Positions 29,370 to 38,533 of a DNA stretch of 64,000 nt are shown one piece after another (positions within the stretch are counted from its first letter, which is position 1; each line of letters starts with the position of its first letter). Location of the stretch: the IMG/VR virus record IMGVR_UViG_3300032896_000001, positions 41,096 through 105,095 of that record. One strand, written 5' to 3'. The position numbers and the translations under genes are program-made. The DNA comes from a virus. The notes beneath the pieces were generated by a model, which saw nothing but the letters and a program-made list of their open reading frames with translations, had not been told where the DNA came from and did not search any database.

Positions 29370-31915
29370 TGGCGTCGGTCGTCCAGTCGGCGATCATCAA
29401 CCAGTCCGGCAGCAGCTGGTCGGGGTCGTTCGGCTCTAACGTCACCGCCGGCTCCTCGGTCGTGCTGCTCGCGACCGCCGCGAACAGCACGACCGCCATG
29501 TCGAGCTCCGCGCCGACGTTCAACGGGGCGTCGGTCGCCGGGTCATCCCAGCTGTGGTCGGAGAACTTCGGCGCGAGCAGCATCGCCTACTCCACCGGCT
29601 GGCTGATGCCCAACGTCGCCGGCGGGTCGGCCGCCGTCGGGCTGACCGTGACCAACGGCACCAACTTCGGCAGCGGCGCGACCGGCACGTGGGGCATCGA
29701 GGTGGCCGCGCTCGGCGCGAGCCCGACCACGGTGGCCGCCGCGGCGGCGGGCGGCTCCAGCGCGGCGTTCAGCTCGGGGGCCACCGGCAGCGCCACGGGC
29801 ACGGGCATCGCCGTCGCCTGCTGCGTGGGATTCGGGCAGACCGTCGCGCAGTCGGGCGGCGGCTGGACGAACCTCACCCAGATGTCCAGTGATTTCGGCA
29901 TCTGCGGGTACCAGCTCGTCAGCAGCGGCACCGTCACCTACGCCGGCACGCTGAGCACGGGCAACTGGGCTGTCGGGGCGACGATCATCCTGGCGACGCC
30001 GGCCGCCGCCTCCCAGGCCGTCGCGTACCCGGTGGCGCTCCCGCCGGGCCGCAGCTCGCCGATGGCCTTCCCGTGGACGCCGGCGCCCTTGCCGGTGCAG
30101 CCGCCGTACGGGGTCGGCGCCACCGCCACCACCGCGGTCCTCGCCGGCTCGGCGTCCTTCCCCTCGCCGTCGGTCGAGGCCGACGAGAACCTGACCACCA
30201 CCGTCCTCGCCTGCTCCGCCTCGTTCCCGGCGCCGATGGTGAGCGCGGGCGAGACCGCCACGCCGTCCGTCCTGGCCGGGTCCGCGAGCTTCCCGGCCGC
30301 CACGGTGACTGCGGGCGCCACGATCACGCCCGCGACGCTGTCGGCGTCGGTCGCGTTCCCCGCCGCCGCGGTGACGACCGGCGAGACCGTCACGACCGTC
30401 GTGCTGGCGGCCTCCGCCGGCTTCCCGGCGCCGTCGCTGCGCGCCGACGAGATCCTCACGACGTCCGTGCTCGCCGGCGCGATCGCGCTGCCGCCCCCGG
30501 CGGTCAGCGCCGGCGAGACCGTCACCACGACACTGCTGCCGGGGTCCGCCTCCTTCGCCGCGCCGGCGATCAGCGCCGGCGAGACCGTCACCGCGGCGGT
30601 TCTGGCCGGATCGGCGTCCTTCCCCGCCCCGGGGGTCGGCGCGGGCTCCGGGGCCTCGCCGTCCGCGCTTCCCTGCGCCGTGTCGTTCCCCGCCCCGACG
30701 GTCACCGCGGGCGGCGGAGCCGCCGTCACGCCCGCGGCCCTGGACGGCGCCGCCTCGTTCGCCTCGCCGGGCATCCGCGCCGACGCGAACCTGACCGCCG
30801 CGACCCTGACGTGCGGCGTCGCCTTTCCCGCCGCCGGGCTCCGCGCGGACGTGAACCTGACCAGCGTCCTGCTGGCAGGGTCCGCCGCCTTCCCGGCCGT
30901 CACGATCGGCGCCGGCGAGACAGTCACCCCTTCCCCCATGGACGGCTCGGCAGCGTTCCCGGGGCCTGCGGTCGGCGCGGGCAGCGTCGCCGCCCCCGCC
31001 GCCCTGGCGGCCAGCGCCGCCTTCCCCGCGGCCACGGTGGCAGCAGGGTCGGGCGCCACGGCATCAGCGCTGGCCTGTTCGGCCTCGTTCCCGGCGGCCG
31101 CCGTGTCCGCAGGCTCGGGCGCCGCACCCGCCGCGCTCGCAGGGGCAGCCGCGTTCCCCGCGGGGAGCTTCCGCGCGGACGCGAACCTCACGGCCGCCCT
31201 GCTGCAATGCGCGGCCGCGTTCCCCGTCCCGTCGATCTCCGCCGGGGGCAGCGCCACCGTCGCCCCGGCCGTCCTGGCCGCCGGCTCCGCGTTCCCCGCC
31301 CCGGCGCTCTCCTCGGGCGAGACCGCCGCCGCCGGCCCGCTGACCGCAAGCGCATCATTCCCCGCGCCCGCGCCGGCCGCCGGGTCCGGCGTCGCCCCGG
31401 GCGCGCTGAGCGGCACCGCCGGATTCCCCGCCCCGCAAATCAGCGCAGGCGAGACCGTCACCCCGGCCGCACTCGCCGGCGCCGTGTCGTTCCCCGCCCC
31501 GACTGTCTCAACCGGGTCGGGGGAGACCATCATCCCGGCGCCCCTGGCCGGCTCCGTCTCGTTCCCCGCCGCCGTCACGGGCGCGGGCGCGACGGTCACC
31601 GCCGGCGTCCTGCCCGGCGCCGCGGCGTTCCCTGCGGCCGGGCCGACCGCCGGGACGGTCATCACCCCGGTGGCGCTCAGCGGGACCGCGGGCTTCCCGG
31701 CGACCGCCGTCACCACCGGGTCCGCCGTCATCCCCGCCGCGATGACCGGCTCGGCCGCGTTCCCCCCGCCGGATGTCACCGGCGGGGCGGGCGTCGGGAT
31801 CGTCTTCACGGCACTCGCGTCCCGGCAGCTCTGGTCCGCCGGCCCCGCCCGGCAGCTCTGGTCATCGTCGGCCGCCCGGCAGCTGTGGTCCGCCTCCGCA
31901 TCCCGGAACACCTGA
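29369..31915 (+). CDS. Long repeat (fibre/solenoid) virion protein
   Basis: About 25 copies of a 22-24 aa unit centred on (S/A)FP(A/S)P. Confidence 0.75.
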   Translation: MASVVQSAIINQSGSSWSGSFGSNVTAGSSVVLLATAANSTTAMSSSAPTFNGASVAGSSQLWSENFGASSIAYSTGWLMPNVAGGSAAVGLTVTNGTNFGSGATGTWGIEVAALGASPTTVAAAAAGGSSAAFSSGATGSATGTGIAVACCVGFGQTVAQSGGGWTNLTQMSSDFGICGYQLVSSGTVTYAGTLSTGNWAVGATIILATPAAASQAVAYPVALPPGRSSPMAFPWTPAPLPVQPPYGVGATATTAVLAGSASFPSPSVEADENLTTTVLACSASFPAPMVSAGETATPSVLAGSASFPAATVTAGATITPATLSASVAFPAAAVTTGETVTTVVLAASAGFPAPSLRADEILTTSVLAGAIALPPPAVSAGETVTTTLLPGSASFAAPAISAGETVTAAVLAGSASFPAPGVGAGSGASPSALPCAVSFPAPTVTAGGGAAVTPAALDGAASFASPGIRADANLTAATLTCGVAFPAAGLRADVNLTSVLLAGSAAFPAVTIGAGETVTPSPMDGSAAFPGPAVGAGSVAAPAALAASAAFPAATVAAGSGATASALACSASFPAAAVSAGSGAAPAALAGAAAFPAGSFRADANLTAALLQCAAAFPVPSISAGGSATVAPAVLAAGSAFPAPALSSGETAAAGPLTASASFPAPAPAAGSGVAPGALSGTAGFPAPQISAGETVTPAALAGAVSFPAPTVSTGSGETIIPAPLAGSVSFPAAVTGAGATVTAGVLPGAAAFPAAGPTAGTVITPVALSGTAGFPATAVTTGSAVIPAAMTGSAAFPPPDVTGGAGVGIVFTALASRQLWSAGPARQLWSSSAARQLWSASASRNT

Positions 31916-31924
31916 GGAGGCGGC

Positions 31925-32263
31925 GTGCAGACGCTAACCCAGTCGGTGCTGAGCACCCAGTACGTGCAGACGCTGATCGCCGTCACCAGCGTCAGCGGCG
32001 ACTACGACCCGACCACCGACACGATCGCGTGGGCGTTCACCAGCGCGAACGCCTACCCGGCCGTCTCCCCGTCCGCCTGGACCGACGGCGAGTGGATCAC
32101 CTACCCCGGAGACCAGTGGTGGGCTCAGATCCTCGTCGGGCCGGCCGGGGCCGTCACCCTCGCCACCGGGACATGGCAGGCATGGGTAAAGATCAGCGAT
32201 TCACCCGAGGTCCCGGTATTGCAGCCGTTCCTGCTCCAGATCGTGTTATGGCGGAATTCGTGA
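31925..32263 (+). CDS. BppU-like baseplate/Ig-type protein
   Basis: W..G.W...ILVGP.G...GTWQAWVKI.DSPEVPV. Confidence 0.55.
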   Translation: MQTLTQSVLSTQYVQTLIAVTSVSGDYDPTTDTIAWAFTSANAYPAVSPSAWTDGEWITYPGDQWWAQILVGPAGAVTLATGTWQAWVKISDSPEVPVLQPFLLQIVLWRNS

Positions 32264-32356
32264 CCCGTTGACCGCTAGAATGTACGAATAAGGCCCCCGC
32301 GCCTGCGCTAACAGGCGCGAGGGGTAAAGCAAGCCAACCTGATCGGACAGGCTGAC

Positions 32357-33103
32357 ATGAGCAAGCGTAAGCCGCTCGAAGAACGGTTCTGGCCTAAGGT
32401 CGACAAGAATGGCCCCGTCCCCGAATACCGGCCCGACCTCGGCCCGTGCTGGGTGTGGACGGCATGCCTCGCTTACGGCTACGGCAAACTCACCGACGGC
32501 GGCAAGCACGGCGTGTCGCTGTCGGCCCACCGAGTCTCCTATGAGCTGCTTGTGGGCACGATTCCCGACGGCCTGGAGTTGGACCACCTGTGCCGCGTCC
32601 GGGCCTGCGTCAACCCCTTCCACCTTGAGCCGGTCACGCGGGCCGAGAATATGCGCCGGGCGATGGAGGCCAAGACCCACTGCGACAAGGGCCACCTGTT
32701 CGATGACGCGAATACGCGCTGGTATAGAGGCGGCCGACGATGCCGCACTTGCGACAGAGCCGCCGCCCGGGTTAAGCGGCAGCGGCCGGCCGTTCCCGGT
32801 ACCAGATCCACGTCGGTCACCGTGAAGCTGAGCGAAGCGGATGCGACGCTGATCGACACTGCCCGCGAGCGCCTGGGACGCCCAGCATGGATGCGCGCCG
32901 CAATGCTCGCGGCGGCCGAGGATGGCGCGAGCGCTCCCGGGAAGCGGGATCGGCAGGTTGAGGCGTTGCGAACCGTCCAGGTTCACATCCCGGCCGCCCC
33001 GGAAGAAATCGAGAAGATCGACGCCGCGCGGGGTGACGTGCTGCGCGGTGTCTGGATTCGCCGGGTCGCGGTCGCCGCAGCCCTCGCTCGTCACGCAGCA
33101 TAG
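32357..33103 (+). CDS. HNH endonuclease with C-terminal RHH-like repeats
   Basis: RFWPKVDK..CW.WT..AHR..LDHLC..CVNP.HL; KTHC.KGH; two RHH-like tails. Confidence 0.85.
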   Translation: MSKRKPLEERFWPKVDKNGPVPEYRPDLGPCWVWTACLAYGYGKLTDGGKHGVSLSAHRVSYELLVGTIPDGLELDHLCRVRACVNPFHLEPVTRAENMRRAMEAKTHCDKGHLFDDANTRWYRGGRRCRTCDRAAARVKRQRPAVPGTRSTSVTVKLSEADATLIDTARERLGRPAWMRAAMLAAAEDGASAPGKRDRQVEALRTVQVHIPAAPEEIEKIDAARGDVLRGVWIRRVAVAAALARHAA

Positions 33104-33123
33104 CCTCGCAAACTCTCAGATCC

Positions 33124-33155
33124 AAAGCCCCCGGCACTTACCTGCCGGGGGCTTT
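33124..33155. terminator. Intrinsic terminator
   Basis: aaagcccccggca-cttacc-tgccgggggcttt. Confidence 0.7.
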
Positions 33156-33176
33156 CCCATTGCCCAGGAGGCCTCC

Positions 33177-34070
33177 TTGACCACTCCCGCCCGCGTCCCC
33201 GGCAAGCGGGGCAGGCTCCCCGCCAAGCGCCTGGCTATGGGCTACCTGCACTCGTACCTCAAGGCCCCGCTTCCCGCCCCGGCCTACCCGGTCGACGTCC
33301 GCGCGGGCATCCCGGACGGAAATTGGCAGATGCTCGGCAACGGACCCGACCCGACGTGCACGGTCGCGCCCGAGGGCGTCGGCGACTGCACGTTCGCCGG
33401 CCGCCAGCACTACCGCATGGCGAAGGCCGCCCACTACGGCGAGACGGAGACCTGGGAGACCAGCAACGCGCTCGTCGAGGAATACCTCGCCTACGACGAC
33501 GGCCAGGACGGGGGCGCAGTAATCGCGGACCTTCTCCTGTCCTGGTACAAGGCGGGCACGATCCTTGCGTTCGCCCCGGTCGACCACACCGACCCGGCGG
33601 CGGTCGACTCGGCGATGCAGGAGTTCAAGGGCGTCTACGCCGGCGTCAACCTCACCGACGACGCCGACCAGCTGTTCAGCGACGGCCAGCCGTGGACGAC
33701 CGCGAACGGCGAGCAGCCCGACCCGAACGACGGGCACTGCATCGTCAAGGTCTACGCCGACGGCAAGGACTCCGACGGGTGGGTTACGTGGGGCGCCTAC
33801 CAGCAGTCCACCAGCGGGTGGACGAAGGCGTGCCTCACCGAGGCGTGGGCGATCATCACCAGCGAGGATGAGGCGGCCAAGGTCGACATGACCTCCCTCC
33901 TCGCCGACATCGAGGCACTCGGCGGAACCGAGCCCGTGACGCCGACTCCGGCCCCCTCGCCCGCGCCTGTTCCCGGGCCTGACCACAAGAGCCTCCTTGC
34001 CGAGCTCGCAGCCATCGTCCGGGAGGACGCCGCCAAAGCGGTCGCCTGGCTCCACTCCAAGGGCCTCTAA
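33177..34070 (+). CDS. Papain-like cysteine peptidase
   Basis: MLGN...GDCTFAG (Cys), GHCI (His), VTWG; TTG after GGAGG. Confidence 0.65.
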   Translation: MTTPARVPGKRGRLPAKRLAMGYLHSYLKAPLPAPAYPVDVRAGIPDGNWQMLGNGPDPTCTVAPEGVGDCTFAGRQHYRMAKAAHYGETETWETSNALVEEYLAYDDGQDGGAVIADLLLSWYKAGTILAFAPVDHTDPAAVDSAMQEFKGVYAGVNLTDDADQLFSDGQPWTTANGEQPDPNDGHCIVKVYADGKDSDGWVTWGAYQQSTSGWTKACLTEAWAIITSEDEAAKVDMTSLLADIEALGGTEPVTPTPAPSPAPVPGPDHKSLLAELAAIVREDAAKAVAWLHSKGL

Positions 34071-34145
34071 GCCCCCCAAGCTCTCACCGGCTCAAGCCCC
34101 GGCCGTCCGGTCGCGGGCTCTTTTCATCCACGGAAAGGCAAGCAA

Positions 34146-34403
34146 ATGACAACTCCCGCTCCCGTCCCCGCCCCGCCCGTCTCCGAGCCGCACGGTTTCG
34201 TGGATTGGCTCCGCGACCACCTGGTCCCCGACTTCAAGGAGATCGAGGCCGACGCCGAGAAGGCCCGCACGGTCATCCCGCTCGTCGAGGCTTACCTCCC
34301 GAAGATCACCGCCGCGGCCGAGGCCGACCCCGCGATCGCCGCCGCGATCGCGCCTCTCGTGAAGGAAGCGACGGAGATCCTGGCGGTGCTCGCCGGGCTG
34401 TAA
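34146..34403 (+). CDS. Hypothetical protein, last late gene
   Basis: GGAAAGG RBS. Confidence 0.6.
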   Translation: MTTPAPVPAPPVSEPHGFVDWLRDHLVPDFKEIEADAEKARTVIPLVEAYLPKITAAAEADPAIAAAIAPLVKEATEILAVLAGL

Positions 34404-34452
34404 GCTCTCACGAGAACGGCCGCCGGGTTCACGAAACCAGGACGCCGAAGCG

Positions 34453-34491
34453 AAGCGCCTCGCCGCCCCTAGTGGGTGGCGAGGCGCTTTT
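34453..34491 (+). terminator. Terminator ending late operon
   Basis: aagcgcctcgcc...ggcgaggcgctttt. Confidence 0.75.
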
Positions 34492-34501
34492 CGCGTGCCC
34501 G

Positions 34502-34546
34502 GAAACAACAGCGCCCCGCCTTCCCGTGAAGGGACGGCGGGGCGCT
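34502..34546 (-). terminator. Terminator downstream of tRNA-like RNA
   Basis: agcgccccgcc...ggcggggcgct followed by gttgttt on minus strand. Confidence 0.7.
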
Positions 34547-34556
34547 CGACGTGTTC

Positions 34557-34634
34557 GCCCTGACGGCTGGAGTCTAACCAGCGATCACCCGGAAGCAAGA
34601 GCCAGGCCGCACTATCGCGCGCGCACGCCGGGGC
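34557..34634 (-). ncRNA. tRNA-like RNA (non-canonical cloverleaf)
   Basis: GCCCCGGCG-TG-CGCG/TGCG D arm-G-CCTGG/CCGGG with 9-nt loop-TGATC-GCTGG TTAGACT CCAGC-CGTCAGGGC; TATAGT -10 at 34649-34644. Confidence 0.65.
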
Positions 34635-34657
34635 TTGGCGCCAACTATAGCGGGCGC

Positions 34658-36080
34658 TCACGTGGTGCCGAGGTAATTCCCGGCAGCGTCCTTGACGGGC
34701 AGCGCCCCGGCGACGATCCCGCCCGGGACCTCCATGCCCGCCAGGTCCGGTCGCAGGCCCTTCCCGGAGAACGCCCCCGCCCGCCGCAGCAAGGCCGCCC
34801 ATGACGGGTCGGAGATCTCCACCCCATGGACAAGCTCGGGCGTCGGCGTGAACTCCGCGACGGCCCCCGTGGCGCGGGGCGCGGTCCATCCCCGCGTGCC
34901 GGGGTCGACGCCCATTTCCGCGCAGGCGGCCTCGACGTCGGCGCGCGTGCAGCGCGCAGTGCCGTCGATGACGTCCCACGGCATCGGCAGGAACGCCCAC
35001 ACCTTCGTGTCGGGGTCCACGTCGCCGCCGCTCGATCGATGCCACCAGACGAGGTCGGCCGCCATCAGGCGCATAACCTTACCGGGCAGGAACGGCTCGA
35101 GCAGAGCCTCCGCGCCCGACGCGACCGCGCAGTTCAGCCAGCCGGCGCGGGCCGCGTTGTACGCCTGCGCCATCGTGTTCCACGTCGAGGAGTCCATGCC
35201 CCGGCGGACGATCATCGACAGGCGGTTCACGCCCTCCGGCCAAGCCCCCCGGAGCTCGGCCGAGGTCTCCCGCATGACCGACCACCAGCGGCCCGTCAGC
35301 GCGCCCCGCTGCTCATCCGATAGTCGCTCGAGAACTTCGGGCCTCGGGTGCGCCATGGCCAGGATCTCGAAGTCCGCGTCCCGTGATGCGAGGACGTGGC
35401 GGAGCATGATGTCCGCCGCCTGGTCGATCGGGTTCTCCTTCGACGCGAGCGTGAACAGGCGGCGCCTGTTCCGCCGCGAGGCGAGGTAGGCGATGAAGCA
35501 CGCCGACGCCGGGTCGGCCGCGAACCGCCCGGGCGGGATGTCGCAGGTGAATCCGGAGCGGCCGATGAGGATCAGCCGCCGGAGATGCTGGGCGCGCTCC
35601 ATCCGCGCGCACTTGCCCTCGAGGTTCCGCAGGACCCGGATGCGGCGGTTGTAGCCGCGCCGCGACTTGAGCGCGGGAAGCTCAACCCGGTGCTCGGCGA
35701 GAGCCCCGTAAAGGGAGGCGCGGCCCGCCCGGTCGAGGCGGTCGGCCTTCCAGTCGTCGCCCCACTGCCATCCGCCGACGACGTGCCCCATCCCGGCGAT
35801 GAAGCCGCGCACCTGCCCCGGGTCGGCGGGATCGATGCCCTCGCCGCCGAAGCCGAACACCCGGGCCGCCGAGGCGAGCTGAGCCGAGCAGTCGCCCGGC
35901 CGCTCGAAGTCGTCCGGCATCGACGAGTACCGCCACGCCGGCCGGGCGGCGGCGACCCGCTGAAGCTCGTGCTTCAGCCCTGACGGCCACGCCCTGTTCC
36001 CCGCGAGGATGATCCGCGCCACGTCCTCCGGCATCGCCCCGCTTGTCGAGGGTGCCGTGCAACTCTTCCAGCCAGCCCAT
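34658..36080 (-). CDS. Conserved unknown alpha-helical protein (~470 aa), apparent 1-nt frameshift near 36040
   Basis: GGGAG RBS before ATG 36080 (MGWLEELHGTLDKR) joins MPEDVARI if one G is removed; long coherent ORF. Confidence 0.7.
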
Positions 36081-36178
36081 GCCTTCGATTCTCCCTGCCG
36101 TCGCTAACGGTTTTCCGGGTGCGGGACGCTGTGCGCGCCCCTATGCTCTCCACTGCCGCTGTAATTGACGATGCGCTC

Positions 36179-36222
36179 CCCGCCCCCTCGCCAGCCGATG
36201 GTTCCGGCGGGCGAGGGGGCGG
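36179..36222. terminator. Hairpin/terminator
   Basis: ccgccccctcgcc...gggcgagggggcgg. Confidence 0.55.
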
Positions 36223-36238
36223 CTCTGCGTTTCCGGGG

Positions 36239-36745
36239 TCAGACCTCCATCGCCCTCGGCGCGCCGAGTGAGGTGTCGGAGAGCATCGCGGCGAGTTGGT
36301 CGCCCATGGCCGTCTCGGCGGGCCGGATCTCCCCGCGGCTCACCCGGTCGATCGCCTCCTGCCAGCGGGCGCTCGTGTCGACCGGGTCGACGGCGATCCG
36401 GTCGAGGGCCTCGCGGTGTGCCTCGGGGACCCGGAACCGGAAGGTCAGGTACGTGGCGTCGAGCGTGTCGTCGGCGTCTCGCAGGTACAGGGGATGAGCG
36501 GCGAGCGCCTCGTTGCAGGCGGCGTAGCAGGACTCCGGGGCGTGGGCGGTGCCGTCCTCCGCGCAGCAGCACTCCCGGTACGGGCCCCCGGTGCGGGTGT
36601 AGACCGCGATCACGAGGCCGTAGGCCGTCCGCTCCACCCAAATATCGCGGAAACGCTGAACCACCGGGCTCCCGAGGACGGGCAGCAGCAGCGCCGCCCG
36701 CTCGTCCTGGCGGCCGTCCGCGACCGCTATCTCATACAGGGACAT
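36239..36745 (-). CDS. Hypothetical phage protein
   Basis: RFRD...VYTRTGG..R...HPLY..D.DD..D.TY..F.F conserved-looking motif. Confidence 0.65.
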   Translation of the reverse strand: MSLYEIAVADGRQDERAALLLPVLGSPVVQRFRDIWVERTAYGLVIAVYTRTGGPYRECCCAEDGTAHAPESCYAACNEALAAHPLYLRDADDTLDATYLTFRFRVPEAHREALDRIAVDPVDTSARWQEAIDRVSRGEIRPAETAMGDQLAAMLSDTSLGAPRAMEV

Positions 36746-36805
36746 CTGCTCGTCCGTTCCTTCGTCGTCGTCTTCGGCCGGAACGCCGGCCGGGTCGGGG
36801 CTGTT

Positions 36806-37006
36806 CTAGTAGTCGCGGCCAATGCAAACGCTCTCAGCGTTGCAGCCGTCAATCCACCGGCAGCCGGCGGGGAAAAAGCAATCGCCGGAGGCCTCGCTTT
36901 CCTCTTCGTCATCGTCGGTCTCGGGGTCGGATTCCGGCTCGGGAGGCGGTGCCGGACGTGGTCTCGGTCCCGGGAGCCCGGGGGGAATCATCGGCGGGCG
37001 CGGCAT
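36806..37006 (-). CDS. Small Pro/acidic/Cys protein
   Basis: ORF immediately after the ParB-like gene. Confidence 0.35.
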   Translation of the reverse strand: MPRPPMIPPGLPGPRPRPAPPPEPESDPETDDDEEESEASGDCFFPAGCRWIDGCNAESVCIGRDY

Positions 37007-37008
37007 GG

Positions 37009-37896
37009 CTACTTCGGCTCGGGGAAGTTCTTCGGGGTGAGGCCGCCGGCCGGGAGCTTGTACAGGCTGACCGCCGTGTTCCCCGCCCGGTAGTGGTTCC
37101 ACGCGAGGACGAGGAGGAACAGCTGCTCGTGCTCGGTGAGCCGCTCGTCGTTCTCCTTGGCCCGCCAGATCTTCGCGCGGAGGGTGTGGACCGGGTGCCC
37201 GGCGGACAGGTCCGCCCCGTCGAGGAGGCGGGCGAGGAACCATTCGGCCTGCTCCGGGCTCTTCCGGTTGAACAGCAGCCACGCCATGCCGAACACGACC
37301 GGCCGCACGGACCGCATCTTGGGGCGGGCCGACATGGCGAACGACACTGCGTCGCGCAGTTCCGGGTGGGCGTCGAGGTAGCCGCCCATCTCGGCGTGCG
37401 TCGGCTCGCCGTCGCTGCCCCGCTGCCGCACCCGCCCGCCCCGGTCCCAGACGCACGCCGACCGGGCCAGCGCGGCGAGAAGGTTCGCGTTCTGCTCCCC
37501 GGCGAGGGCGAGCACGTCGCCCATTCTCCGCTTCGCCCCGGTGTCGATCGTCTTCTGCGTGTCACGGGGCAGCCCGGTGACGACGAACGTCTCGAACGGG
37601 ACCTCCGCCATGATGCACGCGGTGAGCCGGTGCTGGCCGTCGAGGAGCGTCCCGTCGTCGGCGATCTTCACCGTCTCCCCGTTGACGTCCCACTTCCCCT
37701 CCCTCATGTCGCGGGCGAGCTGCGCGGCGAGGGGGTAGCGGAGTGGCCGGTTGCCGTCGTTGCGGGACAGCCACTCCTTCGCCATGCCCGGCGTCACCGT
37801 CATCAGAGATTGCGCGACCTGCCTGCGGGGGATGCCGCCAACTCGCCCTTCCGGGTCGGGGGCGATGAAGATGGGCGCTGCCGCTGTCGCTGTCAT
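37009..37896 (-). CDS. ParB/Srx-like nuclease-domain protein
   Basis: VTP..A.EWL..N..NRPL...LLDGQHRL.A; AGGAG RBS. Confidence 0.75.
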   Translation of the reverse strand: MTATAAAPIFIAPDPEGRVGGIPRRQVAQSLMTVTPGMAKEWLSRNDGNRPLRYPLAAQLARDMREGKWDVNGETVKIADDGTLLDGQHRLTACIMAEVPFETFVVTGLPRDTQKTIDTGAKRRMGDVLALAGEQNANLLAALARSACVWDRGGRVRQRGSDGEPTHAEMGGYLDAHPELRDAVSFAMSARPKMRSVRPVVFGMAWLLFNRKSPEQAEWFLARLLDGADLSAGHPVHTLRAKIWRAKENDERLTEHEQLFLLVLAWNHYRAGNTAVSLYKLPAGGLTPKNFPEPK

Positions 37897-37997
37897 ACTG
37901 GTCTCCTGTTGCTCGATCGGTTCAAATCGGGACCGCGCCCGGTTTCGTTGGCTCTAGGCCGGGCGCGGTAACGCCTGCCTGACGGTTGCCGTCAGCT

Positions 37998-38321
37998 TCA
38001 CTCGCTGCGGGTCAGCGGAATCCCGGCCAGCAGCGAGCGGACCTCGGTCTCCCGGTAACGCCGGTGCCCTCCGAGGGTGCGGATCGACGTCAGCTTCCCG
38101 GCCCTCGCCCACCTGGTGACCGTATTCGGGTCGACACGGAACATCGTGGCCACCTCGGCCGGGGTCAGCAGCGCCTCGGCCTCCGGGACGCGGCGGCCCG
38201 CGTGCGAGGGCGCCGGGGGCTCGTCGAGCAGGTGCGGGGCCTGCCTCCGGATCGTGTCCAGCAGCCTCTCCGGTGTCGTCCTGCCGACGAGCTCAATCGT
38301 CGTCTTGTTCTGCGCGCTCAA
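37998..38321 (-). CDS. bldC: BldC-family developmental regulator with N-terminal extension
   Basis: LLTPAEVATMFRVDPNTVTRWARAGKLTSIRTLGGHRRYRETEVRSLLAGIP is nearly identical to Streptomyces BldC as recalled; TTG start after AAGGAAGG. Confidence 0.85.
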   Translation of the reverse strand: MSAQNKTTIELVGRTTPERLLDTIRRQAPHLLDEPPAPSHAGRRVPEAEALLTPAEVATMFRVDPNTVTRWARAGKLTSIRTLGGHRRYRETEVRSLLAGIPLTRSE

Positions 38322-38386
38322 TTGCGTGCCCTTCCCTTCCTTAAGACTTCCCGTCCGGAGCCGCCGGGCGGACCGGTGAACTTCTG

Positions 38387-38533
38387 TCACCCGAGATGGC
38401 GGATCGCCAGCCGGCAGAGCATGAACAGGCCCGCGGCGGCCCACACGACGGCGATCGGGCCGCCGACGATGAGGACCGGCACGAGCGCGATGGGCATGCG
38501 CTCGAGCCGCGGCGCGCGGTGCCGCCCGCTCAC
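38387..38533 (-). CDS. Small membrane protein
   Basis: GRHRA motif plus TM segment; GTGA-coupled. Confidence 0.45.
   Translation of the reverse strand: MSGRHRAPRLERMPIALVPVLIVGGPIAVVWAAAGLFMLCRLAIRHLG

What the first reader, a model, noticed from the sequence alone, without database searches (positions are those of the whole stretch)
34502..36080. tRNA-mimic RNA with its own promoter and terminator, paired with an unknown ~470-aa protein: candidate new ribonucleoprotein system
Seen: minus strand 34634-34557 folds as a cloverleaf with canonical spacing (TG at 8-9, 4-bp D stem, 5-bp anticodon stem, 5-nt variable loop, perfect T arm GCTGG-TTAGACT-CCAGC). It has non-decoding features: a 9-nt anticodon loop CTCTTGCTT (like Lys-CUU CT-CTT plus 2 nt), no GG in the D loop, an acceptor stem extendable to 9 bp with a C.A mismatch, and no CCA. 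It lies between a TATAGT -10 box and a strong terminator, 24 nt after a large helical, Arg-rich protein of unknown family. Known: bacterial Y RNAs (YrlA) are tRNA mimics encoded beside Ro60/TROVE proteins, and phage tRNA variants counter anticodon nucleases such as PrrC and PARIS. Inference: a Ro60/Y-RNA-like protein-RNA pair, or a decoy against tRNA-cleaving defence.
Basis: partly seen in the sequence, partly recalled or inferred. Interest (0 to 1): 0.82.

Follow-up and report, generated by a model that had tools for sequence, protein, structure and literature searches.

The report
Unknown protein with private tRNA look-alike
The odd tRNA-shaped sequence is real: it is a worn copy of a tRNA look-alike that cannot read codons and that is encoded, in every one of about 107 loci examined in bacteria, plasmids and phages, right beside one protein family of unknown fold, a pairing I found described in no paper and whose job is unknown.

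Summary
Observation confirmed. Window 34556-34634 (minus strand) folds as the cloverleaf described, 23 nt after the stop of a real 458-aa gene (34658-36034). ARAGORN and Rfam miss it. A covariance model built only from RNAs next to the protein's homologues finds it at 42.6 bits, E 1.6e-10, the only strong hit in the 105-kb phage genome.

The protein has no Pfam, NCBIfam, PHROG or PADLOC match and no PDB fold match. All about 107 homologous loci examined (80 genomic, 9 metagenomic, 15 viral, 3 plasmid; 33-84% identity; Actinomycetota and Bacteroidota) carry one or two such RNAs on the same strand. No other neighbouring gene is conserved.

The RNAs keep a covarying tRNA body (97.6% of cells paired, 13 of 21 pairs with compensatory changes) and an invariant G30-G31-C32-U33-C34-U35 motif shared with tRNA-Lys(CUU). 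The 3' half of the anticodon loop drifts at about the neutral rate, and loop length ranges from 4 to 16 nt. They are therefore not ordinary decoders.

The Ro60/Y-RNA reading is not supported. A dedicated protein-RNA module is supported by genomics only. The window's copy is single, degenerate and about 20 bits below its closest relatives. Function is unknown; my best guess is a tRNA-centred conflict module.

Earlier reports of this scan found the same cassette on other DNA (e1-5943581, e1-5348523).

The parts
34658..36034 (-). Gene for the 458-aa protein P0001, of unknown family. It is all-alpha with a small C-terminal beta element. Conserved motifs are VRRGxDSSTWN, PGKVMRLMAADLxxWH and TPELVHG.
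   Evidence: Open frame. Third-position GC 0.9 in this frame. More than 700 homologues, all named 'hypothetical'. 540 clusters at 50% identity in an exhaustive profile search. AF2 model with pLDDT 81.5. No family or fold match.
36035..36080 (-). Out-of-frame N-terminal segment. An ATG at 36080 encodes MGWLEELHGTLDKR, the conserved N-terminus of homologues. One extra G in the run CGGGGCG (about 36043-36037) separates it from the main frame.
   Evidence: It is either an assembly error in a G run or a real frameshift. The protein can still start at the ATG at 36034, where some homologues such as P0082 start.
34556..34634 (-). tRNA-like RNA of the 'type B' subfamily: long acceptor helix and 9-nt anticodon loop. 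This copy is degenerate, with C14, A19, A46 and A56 in place of the family's A14, G19, G46 and C56, and a C.A mismatch in the acceptor helix.
   Evidence: Model R1 scores it 42.6 bits, E 1.6e-10. The cloverleaf is the minimum-free-energy fold. Alignment with type-B relatives, which score 63-67 bits.
34588..34606 (-). Anticodon arm CCUGG-CUCUUGCUU-CCGGG. It carries the family's invariant G30-G31-C32-U33-C34-U35 signature, followed by the freely drifting 3' half of the loop.
34503..34546 (-). GC-rich hairpin followed by GUUGUUU. It is the likely intrinsic terminator of the gene-plus-RNA transcript.
   Evidence: Fold. The simple scan did not call it. The weak Rfam Pxr and CC1840 rows here only reflect the two hairpins.
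34644..34671 (-). Promoter-like site TCGGCA-16 nt-TATAGT, overlapping the stop codon of the gene. Its role is uncertain.
   Evidence: 9 of 12 positions match. Not conserved as a feature of the family: the stop-to-RNA distance is 5-220 nt.
34450..34495 (+). Second hairpin, with a T run on the plus strand. It is the likely terminator of the convergent small plus-strand ORF 34146-34403 and is not part of the cassette.
   Evidence: Sequence and GC3 frame analysis. This is an inference.

Best explanation
The element is a diverged, probably decaying, member of a family of RNAs derived from tRNA-Lys(CUU) that do not decode. These RNAs are the obligate genomic partner of one uncharacterised protein family of about 460 aa.

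Shown:
- Gene and RNA(s) form a self-contained two-part cassette on the same strand. The spacing is so short that they are almost certainly transcribed together.
- The RNA keeps a full L-shaped tRNA body under roughly 6-10 times stronger constraint than fourfold-degenerate sites.
- The anticodon arm keeps G30-G31-C32-U33-C34-U35 invariant across phyla.
- The rest of the anticodon loop drifts in sequence and length.

Inferred:
- The RNA is cut out of the transcript by the tRNA-processing enzymes.
- It is bound by the protein through the constant anticodon stem and the 5' half of the loop, giving a ribonucleoprotein.
- The RNA acts as a look-alike (pseudo-substrate) of tRNA-Lys(CUU)/Gln(CUG)/Glu(CUC)-type anticodon arms.

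My preferred mechanism is a conflict module centred on tRNA. The protein acts on or holds C32-U33-C34-U35 anticodon arms, and its private RNA occupies, restrains or programmes it, in the manner of an RNA antitoxin or bait. The cassette is carried by chromosomes, plasmids, temperate phages and jumbo phages.

In this phage only one RNA (type B) remains. It has lost several tertiary-contact bases, so the cassette here may be losing function.
For: Synteny. There are 1-2 family RNAs next to the gene in 80 of 80 genome loci, 9 of 9 metagenome loci, 13 of 13 viral loci plus 2 more found from the RNA side, and 3 of 3 plasmid loci, including Hymenobacter of the Bacteroidota. No other neighbouring gene is conserved. 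Flanks are ordinary chromosomal genes in some genera.

Exclusivity. In five large genomes there is one protein copy each. The one or two best model hits (88-96 bits) are the copies adjacent to the gene. The next hits (70-79 bits) are Val, Asn and Thr tRNAs plus one odd tRNA-Pro(CGG)-like gene far from any cassette.

RNA-first test. A D-arm+GGCUCU pattern hit 24 viral loci. The 9 loci with the family body all have the protein. The other 15 are canonical tRNA-Lys(CUU) genes without it.

Structure. 97.6% of cells are paired and 13 of 21 pairs change on both sides, against 0 of 500 shuffles.

Spacing. Stop-to-RNA distance has a median of 35 nt. The gap between the two RNAs has a median of 8 nt.

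Loop. Lengths are 4-10 nt in 144 RNAs, only 75 of them 7 nt, and about 12-16 nt in distant loci. C32 is present in 144 of 144, U33 in 140 and C34 in 127.

Rates. In 17 independent close pairs, loop substitutions were 13 observed against 25 expected if neutral. Loop length differed in 10 of 34 comparisons. The body had 60 changes against 341 expected.

Window. The window's element is a family member at E 1.6e-10.

Protein. Predicted structures of two uncharacterised giant-virus proteins (Edafosvirus, Yasminevirus) match the model full-length at E 5e-10 and 1e-8. From my own knowledge, these viruses encode large tRNA sets.
Against: - No direct evidence exists that the protein binds the RNA, that the RNA is expressed or processed, or that either is toxic or protective.
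- The protein has no recognisable nuclease, transferase or RNA-binding fold.
- PADLOC has no match.
- In some lineages (Micromonospora, many second RNAs) the loops are canonical 7-nt loops with a purine at position 37, so decoding is not excluded for those copies.
- In type III toxin-antitoxin systems the RNA precedes the toxin gene, whereas here it usually follows the gene.
- Stable vertical inheritance in Lentzea-type chromosomal contexts is not typical of defence islands.
- The window's own copy deviates at conserved positions and may be non-functional.
Confidence: 0.55

Rival explanations
1. Counter-defence decoy. The RNA alone soaks up host nucleases that cut the anticodon loop of tRNA-Lys-type tRNAs (PrrC, RloC, PARIS-like and similar). 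The protein is an accessory factor for stabilising, repairing or processing it.
For: The anticodon arm and D arm match those of genuine tRNA-Lys(CUU) genes. The 3' half of the loop is free to change, as expected of a non-cleavable mimic. The cassette lies within or beside phage tRNA arrays. Phage tRNAs with altered anticodon loops are known to evade such nucleases (PMC10264068, PMC11464382, PMC11555353; found, abstracts only read).
Against: The cassette is also a single-copy chromosomal module with conserved housekeeping flanks in several genera. A decoy does not need an obligate 460-aa partner kept in every locus examined. Loop drift is about neutral, not faster, so there is no sign of an arms race at the loop.
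Confidence: 0.2
2. Special decoding tRNAs, such as four-base or frameshift readers, tRNAs that switch anticodon, or tRNAs that complement a host tRNA gene broken by prophage integration. The protein would be their dedicated modifying or charging enzyme.
For: About half of the loops are 7 nt, and many have U33 and a purine at position 37. Close relatives differ by clean anticodon changes (CGG, CGA, CCA, CCG, CAG) with the 7-nt frame kept. The body has all tRNA tertiary hallmarks. tRNA-dependent lysogeny exists in actinophages (PMC10865867).
Against: Loops of 4, 5, 6, 8, 9, 10 and about 12-16 nt occur in closely related loci. The discriminator base and the first acceptor pair are not conserved, and CCA is rarely encoded (10 of 144). 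The window's loop is 9 nt and its elbow bases are lost. ARAGORN assigns no amino acid to many copies. The protein resembles no synthetase or modification enzyme.
Confidence: 0.08
3. Cis-acting transcript-end element. The tRNA shape only recruits RNase P or RNase Z to cut and stabilise the protein's mRNA ('tRNA punctuation'). There would be no free-standing RNA function.
For: The RNA is always on the same strand and very close to the gene (5-220 nt after the stop, or just upstream). A terminator follows in the window.
Against: RNase P and RNase Z need only the general tRNA shape. That does not explain an anticodon-arm sequence invariant across phyla or two tandem copies. The RNA lies upstream of the gene in some loci.
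Confidence: 0.1
4. Ro60/Rsr-Y RNA-like RNA quality-control particle.
For: Only the general logic fits: a tRNA-like RNA encoded beside a largely helical protein.
Against: No TROVE or vWA domain. No Ro60 chain appears in the listed fold-search output. No YrlA hit in Rfam. Y RNAs have a long stem with a Ro-binding bulge, which is absent here.
Confidence: 0.03
5. Decayed pseudo-tRNA, leftover of an integration site, or chance neighbour.
For: The window's copy is degenerate: 42.6 bits against 63-67 for close relatives. It is not more stable than shuffled sequence. The gene has an N-terminal frame break.
Against: The pairing recurs in all of about 107 loci, with covariation and strong constraint on the RNA body. 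Chance and att-site remnants cannot give that. 'Decaying copy of a real cassette' is part of my main reading.
Confidence: 0.04

Closest known systems
Rsr/Ro60 with YrlA Y RNA (bacterial Ro ribonucleoprotein)
   Same: A protein gene with an adjacent gene for an RNA that contains a tRNA-like module. The pair spreads on mobile elements and chromosomes.
   Different: No TROVE or vWA domain and no Ro60 fold detected. The RNA is a complete 75-80 nt cloverleaf without the Y-RNA stem. There is no Rfam YrlA match.
Phage tRNAs with altered anticodon loops that evade tRNA-cutting defences (T5 tRNA-Lys against PARIS; mycobacteriophage tRNAs; PMC11464382, PMC10264068, PMC11555353)
   Same: tRNA-Lys-type anticodon arm with changes confined to the loop. 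Occurs within phage tRNA arrays.
   Different: Those are working decoders with 7-nt loops and have no dedicated protein partner. Here loop length is free (4-16 nt) and a 460-aa protein is always adjacent. The cassette is also chromosomal.
Type III toxin-antitoxin systems (ToxIN and relatives; from my own knowledge)
   Same: A stand-alone protein-plus-RNA gene pair with no other conserved neighbour, found on plasmids, phages and chromosomes. The RNA would neutralise the protein by direct binding.
   Different: The antitoxin there is an array of short repeats upstream of the toxin gene, processed by the toxin itself, and the toxin is a small endoRNase of known fold. Here the RNA is one or two tRNA cloverleaves, mostly downstream, and the protein fold is unknown. 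Toxicity is untested.
Non-decoding stable tRNA-like RNAs of phages
   Same: RNAs with a tRNA body in phage tRNA clusters that cannot read codons. Function unknown.
   Different: Those replace the anticodon arm by other modules and have no fixed protein partner. Here the anticodon stem and the 5' half of the loop are the most conserved part.
Bacillus cereus tRNA-Other with class I LysRS; tmRNA with SmpB (from my own knowledge)
   Same: A pseudo-tRNA that works with one dedicated protein rather than in ordinary decoding.
   Different: The partner here is neither a synthetase nor SmpB. The G3:U70 pair is almost absent (1 of 138 at the third acceptor pair; CG in 96) and there is no mRNA-like domain.

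Membership tests
Canonical decoding tRNA (Rfam RF00005 / ARAGORN) | Detected by tRNA finders | tested here: not met
   ARAGORN finds 0 genes in the window. Rfam shows no tRNA row at E<=10 over 33500-37000.
Canonical decoding tRNA (Rfam RF00005 / ARAGORN) | 7-nt anticodon loop with U33 and a purine at position 37 | tested here: not met
   The loop is 9 nt, CUCUUGCUU.
Canonical decoding tRNA (Rfam RF00005 / ARAGORN) | Elbow and core contacts: U8-A14, G18-G19 with U55-C56 | tested here: not met
   The window has C at 14, no GG in the D loop, and the T loop UUAGACU with A at 56.
Canonical decoding tRNA (Rfam RF00005 / ARAGORN) | Aminoacylation and use on the ribosome | not testable with these tools
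   Needs acid gels or tRNA sequencing of a carrier strain.
tRNA-like RNA family linked to the P0001 protein (this cassette; undescribed) | Significant match to the family covariance model | tested here: met
   42.6 bits, E 1.6e-10, full length, with a model built without the window.
tRNA-like RNA family linked to the P0001 protein (this cassette; undescribed) | Same strand as, and directly beside, a P0001 homologue | tested here: met
   23 nt after the stop codon. The family median is 35 nt.
tRNA-like RNA family linked to the P0001 protein (this cassette; undescribed) | Invariant G30-G31-C32-U33-C34-U35 with a variable 3' half of the loop | tested here: met
   The window has GGCUCU followed by UGCUU.
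tRNA-like RNA family linked to the P0001 protein (this cassette; undescribed) | Intact tRNA tertiary hallmarks, as in other members | tested here: not met
   A14, G19, G46 and C56 are all changed. The score is about 20 bits below type-B relatives.
Ro60/TROVE-Y RNA | TROVE domain (with vWA) in the protein | tested here: not met
   Pfam gives no family at E<=0.01. NCBIfam gives none.
Ro60/TROVE-Y RNA | Ro60 ring fold | tested here: inconclusive
   No Ro60 chain is listed by Foldseek or VIA-align for the whole model or the C-terminal model. Absence from such lists does not exclude a fold.
Ro60/TROVE-Y RNA | Y RNA / YrlA architecture | tested here: not met
   No Rfam YrlA hit. The RNA is a plain cloverleaf.
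Type III toxin-antitoxin | Tandem short-repeat RNA upstream of a small endoRNase toxin | tested here: not met
   The RNA is one or two cloverleaves, mostly downstream. PADLOC finds no match for the protein.
Type III toxin-antitoxin | Protein toxic, and neutralised by the RNA | not testable with these tools
   Needs expression assays.
tmRNA-SmpB | G3:U70 alanine identity pair and an mRNA-like reading frame | tested here: not met
   The third acceptor pair is CG in 96 of 138 and GU in 1. There is no insert in the 78-nt RNA.

The most novel reading that the evidence does not exclude
The cassette is a new class of protein-RNA system built around tRNA. An enzyme of a so far unseen fold acts on tRNA-Lys/Gln/Glu-type anticodon arms (C32-U33-C34-U35). 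It is kept in check, or aimed, by its own pseudo-substrate tRNA encoded beside it. In effect this would be a tRNA-shaped RNA antitoxin or bait, shared by actinomycete chromosomes, plasmids, temperate and jumbo phages, with structural relatives in tRNA-rich giant viruses.
Probability: 0.25. Interest if true: 0.9.

Novelty: categorically new. Interest (0 to 1): 0.8.

Why it matters
If the pairing is functional, this is an undescribed ribonucleoprotein family of wide reach. An exhaustive search of 1.84 billion representative proteins found 540 clusters at 50% identity, and about 394 species genomes carry it. It occurs in Actinomycetota and Bacteroidota, on plasmids and in temperate and jumbo phages.

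It would add a new way in which the tRNA shape is reused outside decoding. It would also give an unknown protein fold a defined RNA ligand with a clear recognition motif (GGCUCU in the anticodon arm). That makes the question directly testable by pull-down, binding and toxicity assays in culturable Streptomyces, Micromonospora or Lentzea.

It also matters for annotation. These genes are currently called as odd or undetermined tRNAs, or missed altogether.

Tried and rejected
Protein family and fold searches that gave nothing useful:
- Pfam, PHROGs, NCBIfam and PADLOC on the protein: no match.
- PDB sequence profile search: only a chance 40S ribosomal protein S6 row at E 0.012.
- Foldseek against PDB, whole model and C-terminal 263 residues: nothing at E<=0.001.
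- VIA-align wide, both models: best Z 6.0, generic helical bundles only, including weak Avd-like four-helix rows.
- ESM Atlas: no usable hit.
- Search for longer fused forms: none.

Sequence and locus searches:
- tblastn against 50,697 phage records: no match.
- First genome-contig scan with the single protein: no relatives. The alignment-based scan then found 394.

RNA tests:
- Rfam at E<=10: no tRNA or YrlA. The Pxr and CC1840 rows are the terminator hairpins.
- Thermodynamic test of the element: z -0.15, uninformative.
- Diversifying selection on the loop: rejected. Substitutions run at about half the neutral rate, though length changes are frequent.
- A link between the RNA and the +1 frame break in the gene: the loop has no complement to the GGGG site, so dropped.

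Literature: seven searches found no description of the cassette.
Full report
WHAT IS IN THE WINDOW

The window is the right 64 kb of a 105,095-bp virus record. It is very GC-rich (0.78-0.80). The stretch 31.9-38.5 kb is a lower-GC island (0.67-0.72).

Third-position GC shows which of the many open frames are real. On the minus strand there is a run of genes:
- 37896-37009 (matches phrog_5931, function unknown);
- 36745-36239;
- 36034-34658 (P0001, 458 aa).

Convergent plus-strand genes end at 34403. The conserved N-terminus of homologues (MGWLEELHGTLDKR, as in P0003) is present from 36080 but is one base out of frame, because of an extra G in CGGGGCG.

It is also the minimum-free-energy fold. 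Its features are:
- an 8-9 bp acceptor helix with a C.A mismatch;
- a D arm without GG;
- the anticodon stem CCUGG/CCGGG with the 9-nt loop CUCUUGCUU;
- the variable loop UGAUC;
- the T arm GCUGG-UUAGACU-CCAGC;
- no encoded CCA.

A strong hairpin with a U-rich tail follows at 34546-34503. ARAGORN and Rfam do not see the element. It is no more stable than shuffled sequence (z -0.15). By itself it could therefore be chance in GC-rich DNA.

WHY IT IS NOT CHANCE

P0001 has more than 700 homologues, all annotated 'hypothetical' and without Pfam domains. An exhaustive profile search finds 540 clusters at 50% identity, nearly all of 430-500 aa. I fetched DNA around homologues from four collections:
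- 80 loci from species-representative genomes, out of 394 hits;
- 9 metagenome loci;
- 13 viral loci, plus 2 more found later from the RNA side;
- 3 plasmid loci.

ARAGORN or the covariance model finds one or two tRNA-like genes beside the gene in every one of them, on the same strand. Most lie 5-220 nt after the stop (median 35 nt), and the two RNAs are a median of 8 nt apart. In a minority of loci the RNAs lie just upstream.

This holds down to 33-38% protein identity. It holds in low-GC organisms (L007-L011), in a Hymenobacter (Bacteroidota) plasmid and in a Miltoncostaea plasmid. All-against-all comparison of the flanking ORFs finds no other conserved neighbour. The best neighbour cluster occurs in 16 of 83 loci and consists of lineage-specific housekeeping genes such as YaaA, RIO kinase, a DEAD-box helicase and GNAT.

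THE RNA FAMILY

An alignment of 138 distinct RNAs (A2) has 97.6% of cells base-paired. Thirteen of 21 pairs show changes on both sides, far above shuffled and slid controls. Six of the seven acceptor pairs covary.

The body carries the standard tRNA hallmarks: U8, A14, G18-G19, G26, U33, C48, G53-C61 and the T loop UUCGAGC. Its sequence is almost constant.

Model R1, built from A2 without the window, hits window 34556-34632(-) at 42.6 bits, E 1.6e-10. The next window hit has E 0.05. It is the only strong hit in the whole phage genome.

In five large bacterial genomes there is one protein copy each. The one or two best R1 hits (88-96 bits) are those next to the protein gene. The next-best hits (70-79 bits) are Val, Asn and Thr tRNAs plus one odd tRNA-Pro(CGG)-like gene far from any cassette.

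The reverse test agrees. A pattern made of the D arm plus GGCUCU finds 24 viral loci. The 9 loci whose RNA has the family body all have the protein beside it. The other 15 are canonical tRNA-Lys(CUU) genes (loop CUCUUAA, or CUCUUAC in one) with no such protein in the stretch fetched.

That test also shows what the family imitates. Its D arm and its anticodon arm up to U35 match those of genuine tRNA-Lys(CUU) genes.

THE ANTICODON LOOP

In 144 RNAs the loop lengths are as follows.

| Loop length (nt) | 4 | 5 | 6 | 7 | 8 | 9 | 10 |
|---|---|---|---|---|---|---|---|
| Number of RNAs | 1 | 1 | 4 | 75 | 46 | 15 | 1 |

(One further row, L089, was mis-parsed as 13 nt.) Distant loci have loops of about 12-16 nt.

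C32 is present in 144 of 144, U33 in 140 and C34 in 127, and U35 is the commonest base at its position. G30-G31 and C39-C40 are kept in nearly all copies, across phyla, while the outer stem pairs covary.

To ask whether the variable part is driven or merely free, I took 17 phylogenetically independent pairs of loci with fourfold-site divergence of 0.30 or less:
- Loop positions 34 onward had 13 substitutions, against 25 expected at the neutral rate.
- 10 of 34 loop comparisons differed in length.
- The 49-nt body had 60 changes, against 341 expected.

The body is thus under strong constraint. The 3' half of the loop is close to unconstrained, with frequent length changes and no sign of diversifying selection. 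The discriminator base (G 85, A 28, U 20, C 11) and the first acceptor pair are not conserved, and CCA is encoded in only 10 of 144.

Together these features argue against a fixed amino-acid identity and against ordinary decoding for the family as a whole. Some lineages do keep 7-nt loops that could decode.

THE PROTEIN

AlphaFold2 with 30 homologues gives a confident all-alpha model with a small C-terminal beta element (pLDDT 81.5, pTM 0.75). The C-terminal 263 residues, modelled alone with 41 sequences, give pLDDT 84.

Neither model matches a solved structure beyond generic helical bundles. Foldseek finds nothing at E<=0.001, and the best VIA-align Z is 6.0.

The only convincing structural relatives are two uncharacterised giant-virus proteins in BFVD: Edafosvirus at E 4.9e-10 and Yasminevirus at E 9.8e-9, TM about 0.53, full length. 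From my own knowledge, these viruses carry unusually large tRNA and translation gene sets. This is suggestive only.

No fused forms were found. Invariant polar residues (D281, S282, N286, R296, K319, D327, H403; H332 nearly invariant) lie in the motifs DSSTWN, PGKVMRLMAADLxxWH and TPELVHG. They could form an active site or an RNA-binding surface, but I cannot say which.

THE WINDOW'S COPY

Its nearest relatives with DNA in hand (L001, L003, L005, L006; 56-67% protein identity) have two RNAs after the gene. The first is 'type A': 7-bp acceptor, AA at positions 8-9. The second is 'type B': over-long acceptor helix, D arm CGCC...GUGCG, 9-nt loop CUCUGNNUU.

The window has only type B. Compared with type-B relatives (63-67 bits) it scores 42.6 bits. 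It differs at positions that are otherwise constant: A9 to G, A14 to C, G19 to A, G46 to A and C56 to A. It also has the acceptor C.A mismatch.

With the N-terminal frame break, this suggests a cassette that is drifting in this phage. An assembly error in the G run and lineage-specific change cannot be excluded.

HOW IT MOST LIKELY WORKS

Shown: a two-part cassette; an RNA with a selected tRNA shape; an invariant anticodon-arm motif borrowed from tRNA-Lys(CUU); a loop that is not kept for decoding; and tight spacing that implies co-transcription.

Inferred:
- The tRNA-processing enzymes release the RNA.
- The protein recognises the constant anticodon stem and the 5' half of the loop.
- The pair works as a ribonucleoprotein in which the RNA is a pseudo-substrate, bait or restraint for a protein that deals with C32-U33-C34-U35 anticodon arms.

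The cassette's lifestyle fits a conflict module: stand-alone, single copy, present on plasmids, prophages, jumbo-phage tRNA arrays and chromosomes. I put 0.55 on this package. About 0.95 of my belief is on 'real conserved cassette', and much less on the mechanism.

The rivals are a pure decoy, special decoders, a transcript-end element, a Ro-like particle, and decay or chance. They are weighed in their own sections.

COMPARISON WITH WHAT IS KNOWN

No membership test for a known family is met (see the table). In logic, the closest are Ro60-YrlA, phage tRNA-Lys variants that evade PARIS or PrrC, type III toxin-antitoxin pairs, and the unexplained stable tRNA-like RNAs of T4-type phages.

Seven full-text searches found no description of this pairing. 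A 2023 catalogue of viral structured RNAs mentions tRNA-like candidates only generically (PMC10690425).

Earlier reports of this scan (e1-5943581, e1-5348523) reached the same cassette from other genomes. My tests were run independently and agree. They add the neutral-rate test, the RNA-first test with its tRNA-Lys(CUU) match, the giant-virus structural relatives, and the finding that this copy is degenerate.

Noticed in passing
window 36035-36080 (minus strand): The conserved N-terminal 15 residues of the protein family are encoded one base out of frame. An extra G in the run CGGGGCG causes this. It is either an assembly error or a real frameshift.
   Followed up: partly
window 31900-38500: A lower-GC island (0.67-0.72 against 0.78-0.80 in the flanks) holds the cassette. 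It also holds an HNH homing-endonuclease-like ORF (32357-33103, plus strand; PADLOC HEase, E 3e-7) and a phrog_5931 protein (37009-37896, minus strand). It looks like a block of accessory genes acquired by the phage.
   Followed up: partly
L097:2937-3095 (minus strand; genome G000 about 35,937-36,095, outside the window): A second, unrelated tRNA-like element of about 160 nt lies right after another leftward gene. It has a 12-bp acceptor-like helix, a class-II-type D arm, a long insert and a good T arm (GGGUUCGAAUCCC). ARAGORN does not call it, and R1 matches only its T arm (12.5 bits).
   Followed up: partly
L024:4965-5041, L028:4734-4808, L034:4734-4808 (minus strand): In three Streptosporangiales genomes a genuine host tRNA-Lys(CUU) gene lies convergently 100-350 nt beyond the cassette.
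   Followed up: no
L144 (Miltoncostaea oceani plasmid NZ_CP064357, 391689-398951): Here the cassette sits among two peptidyl-tRNA hydrolase genes, a nucleotidyltransferase-domain gene, a DprA gene and an HNH endonuclease. This hints at a tRNA-related neighbourhood.
   Followed up: no
L001:37-1538 and L015:2-2744: In an IMG/VR contig and in Micromonospora maritima the cassette follows arrays of 11 and 16 ordinary tRNA genes. In jumbo-phage contigs (L110, L111, L113) it is likewise embedded among tRNAs.
   Followed up: partly
L098 (G002:C1:8560713-8560786, Lentzea sp.): An odd tRNA-Pro(CGG)-like gene (starts CAUGGAG, D stem GAUC/GAUC) is the best non-cassette hit of model R1 (79 bits). It lies far from any P0001 gene.
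   Followed up: no
L002, L143, L144 (RefSeq plasmids): Locus-tag numbers skip exactly where the tRNA-like genes lie (for example RS01380, and RS22695/RS22700). NCBI's pipeline therefore annotates something there that the plasmid table does not show.
   Followed up: no
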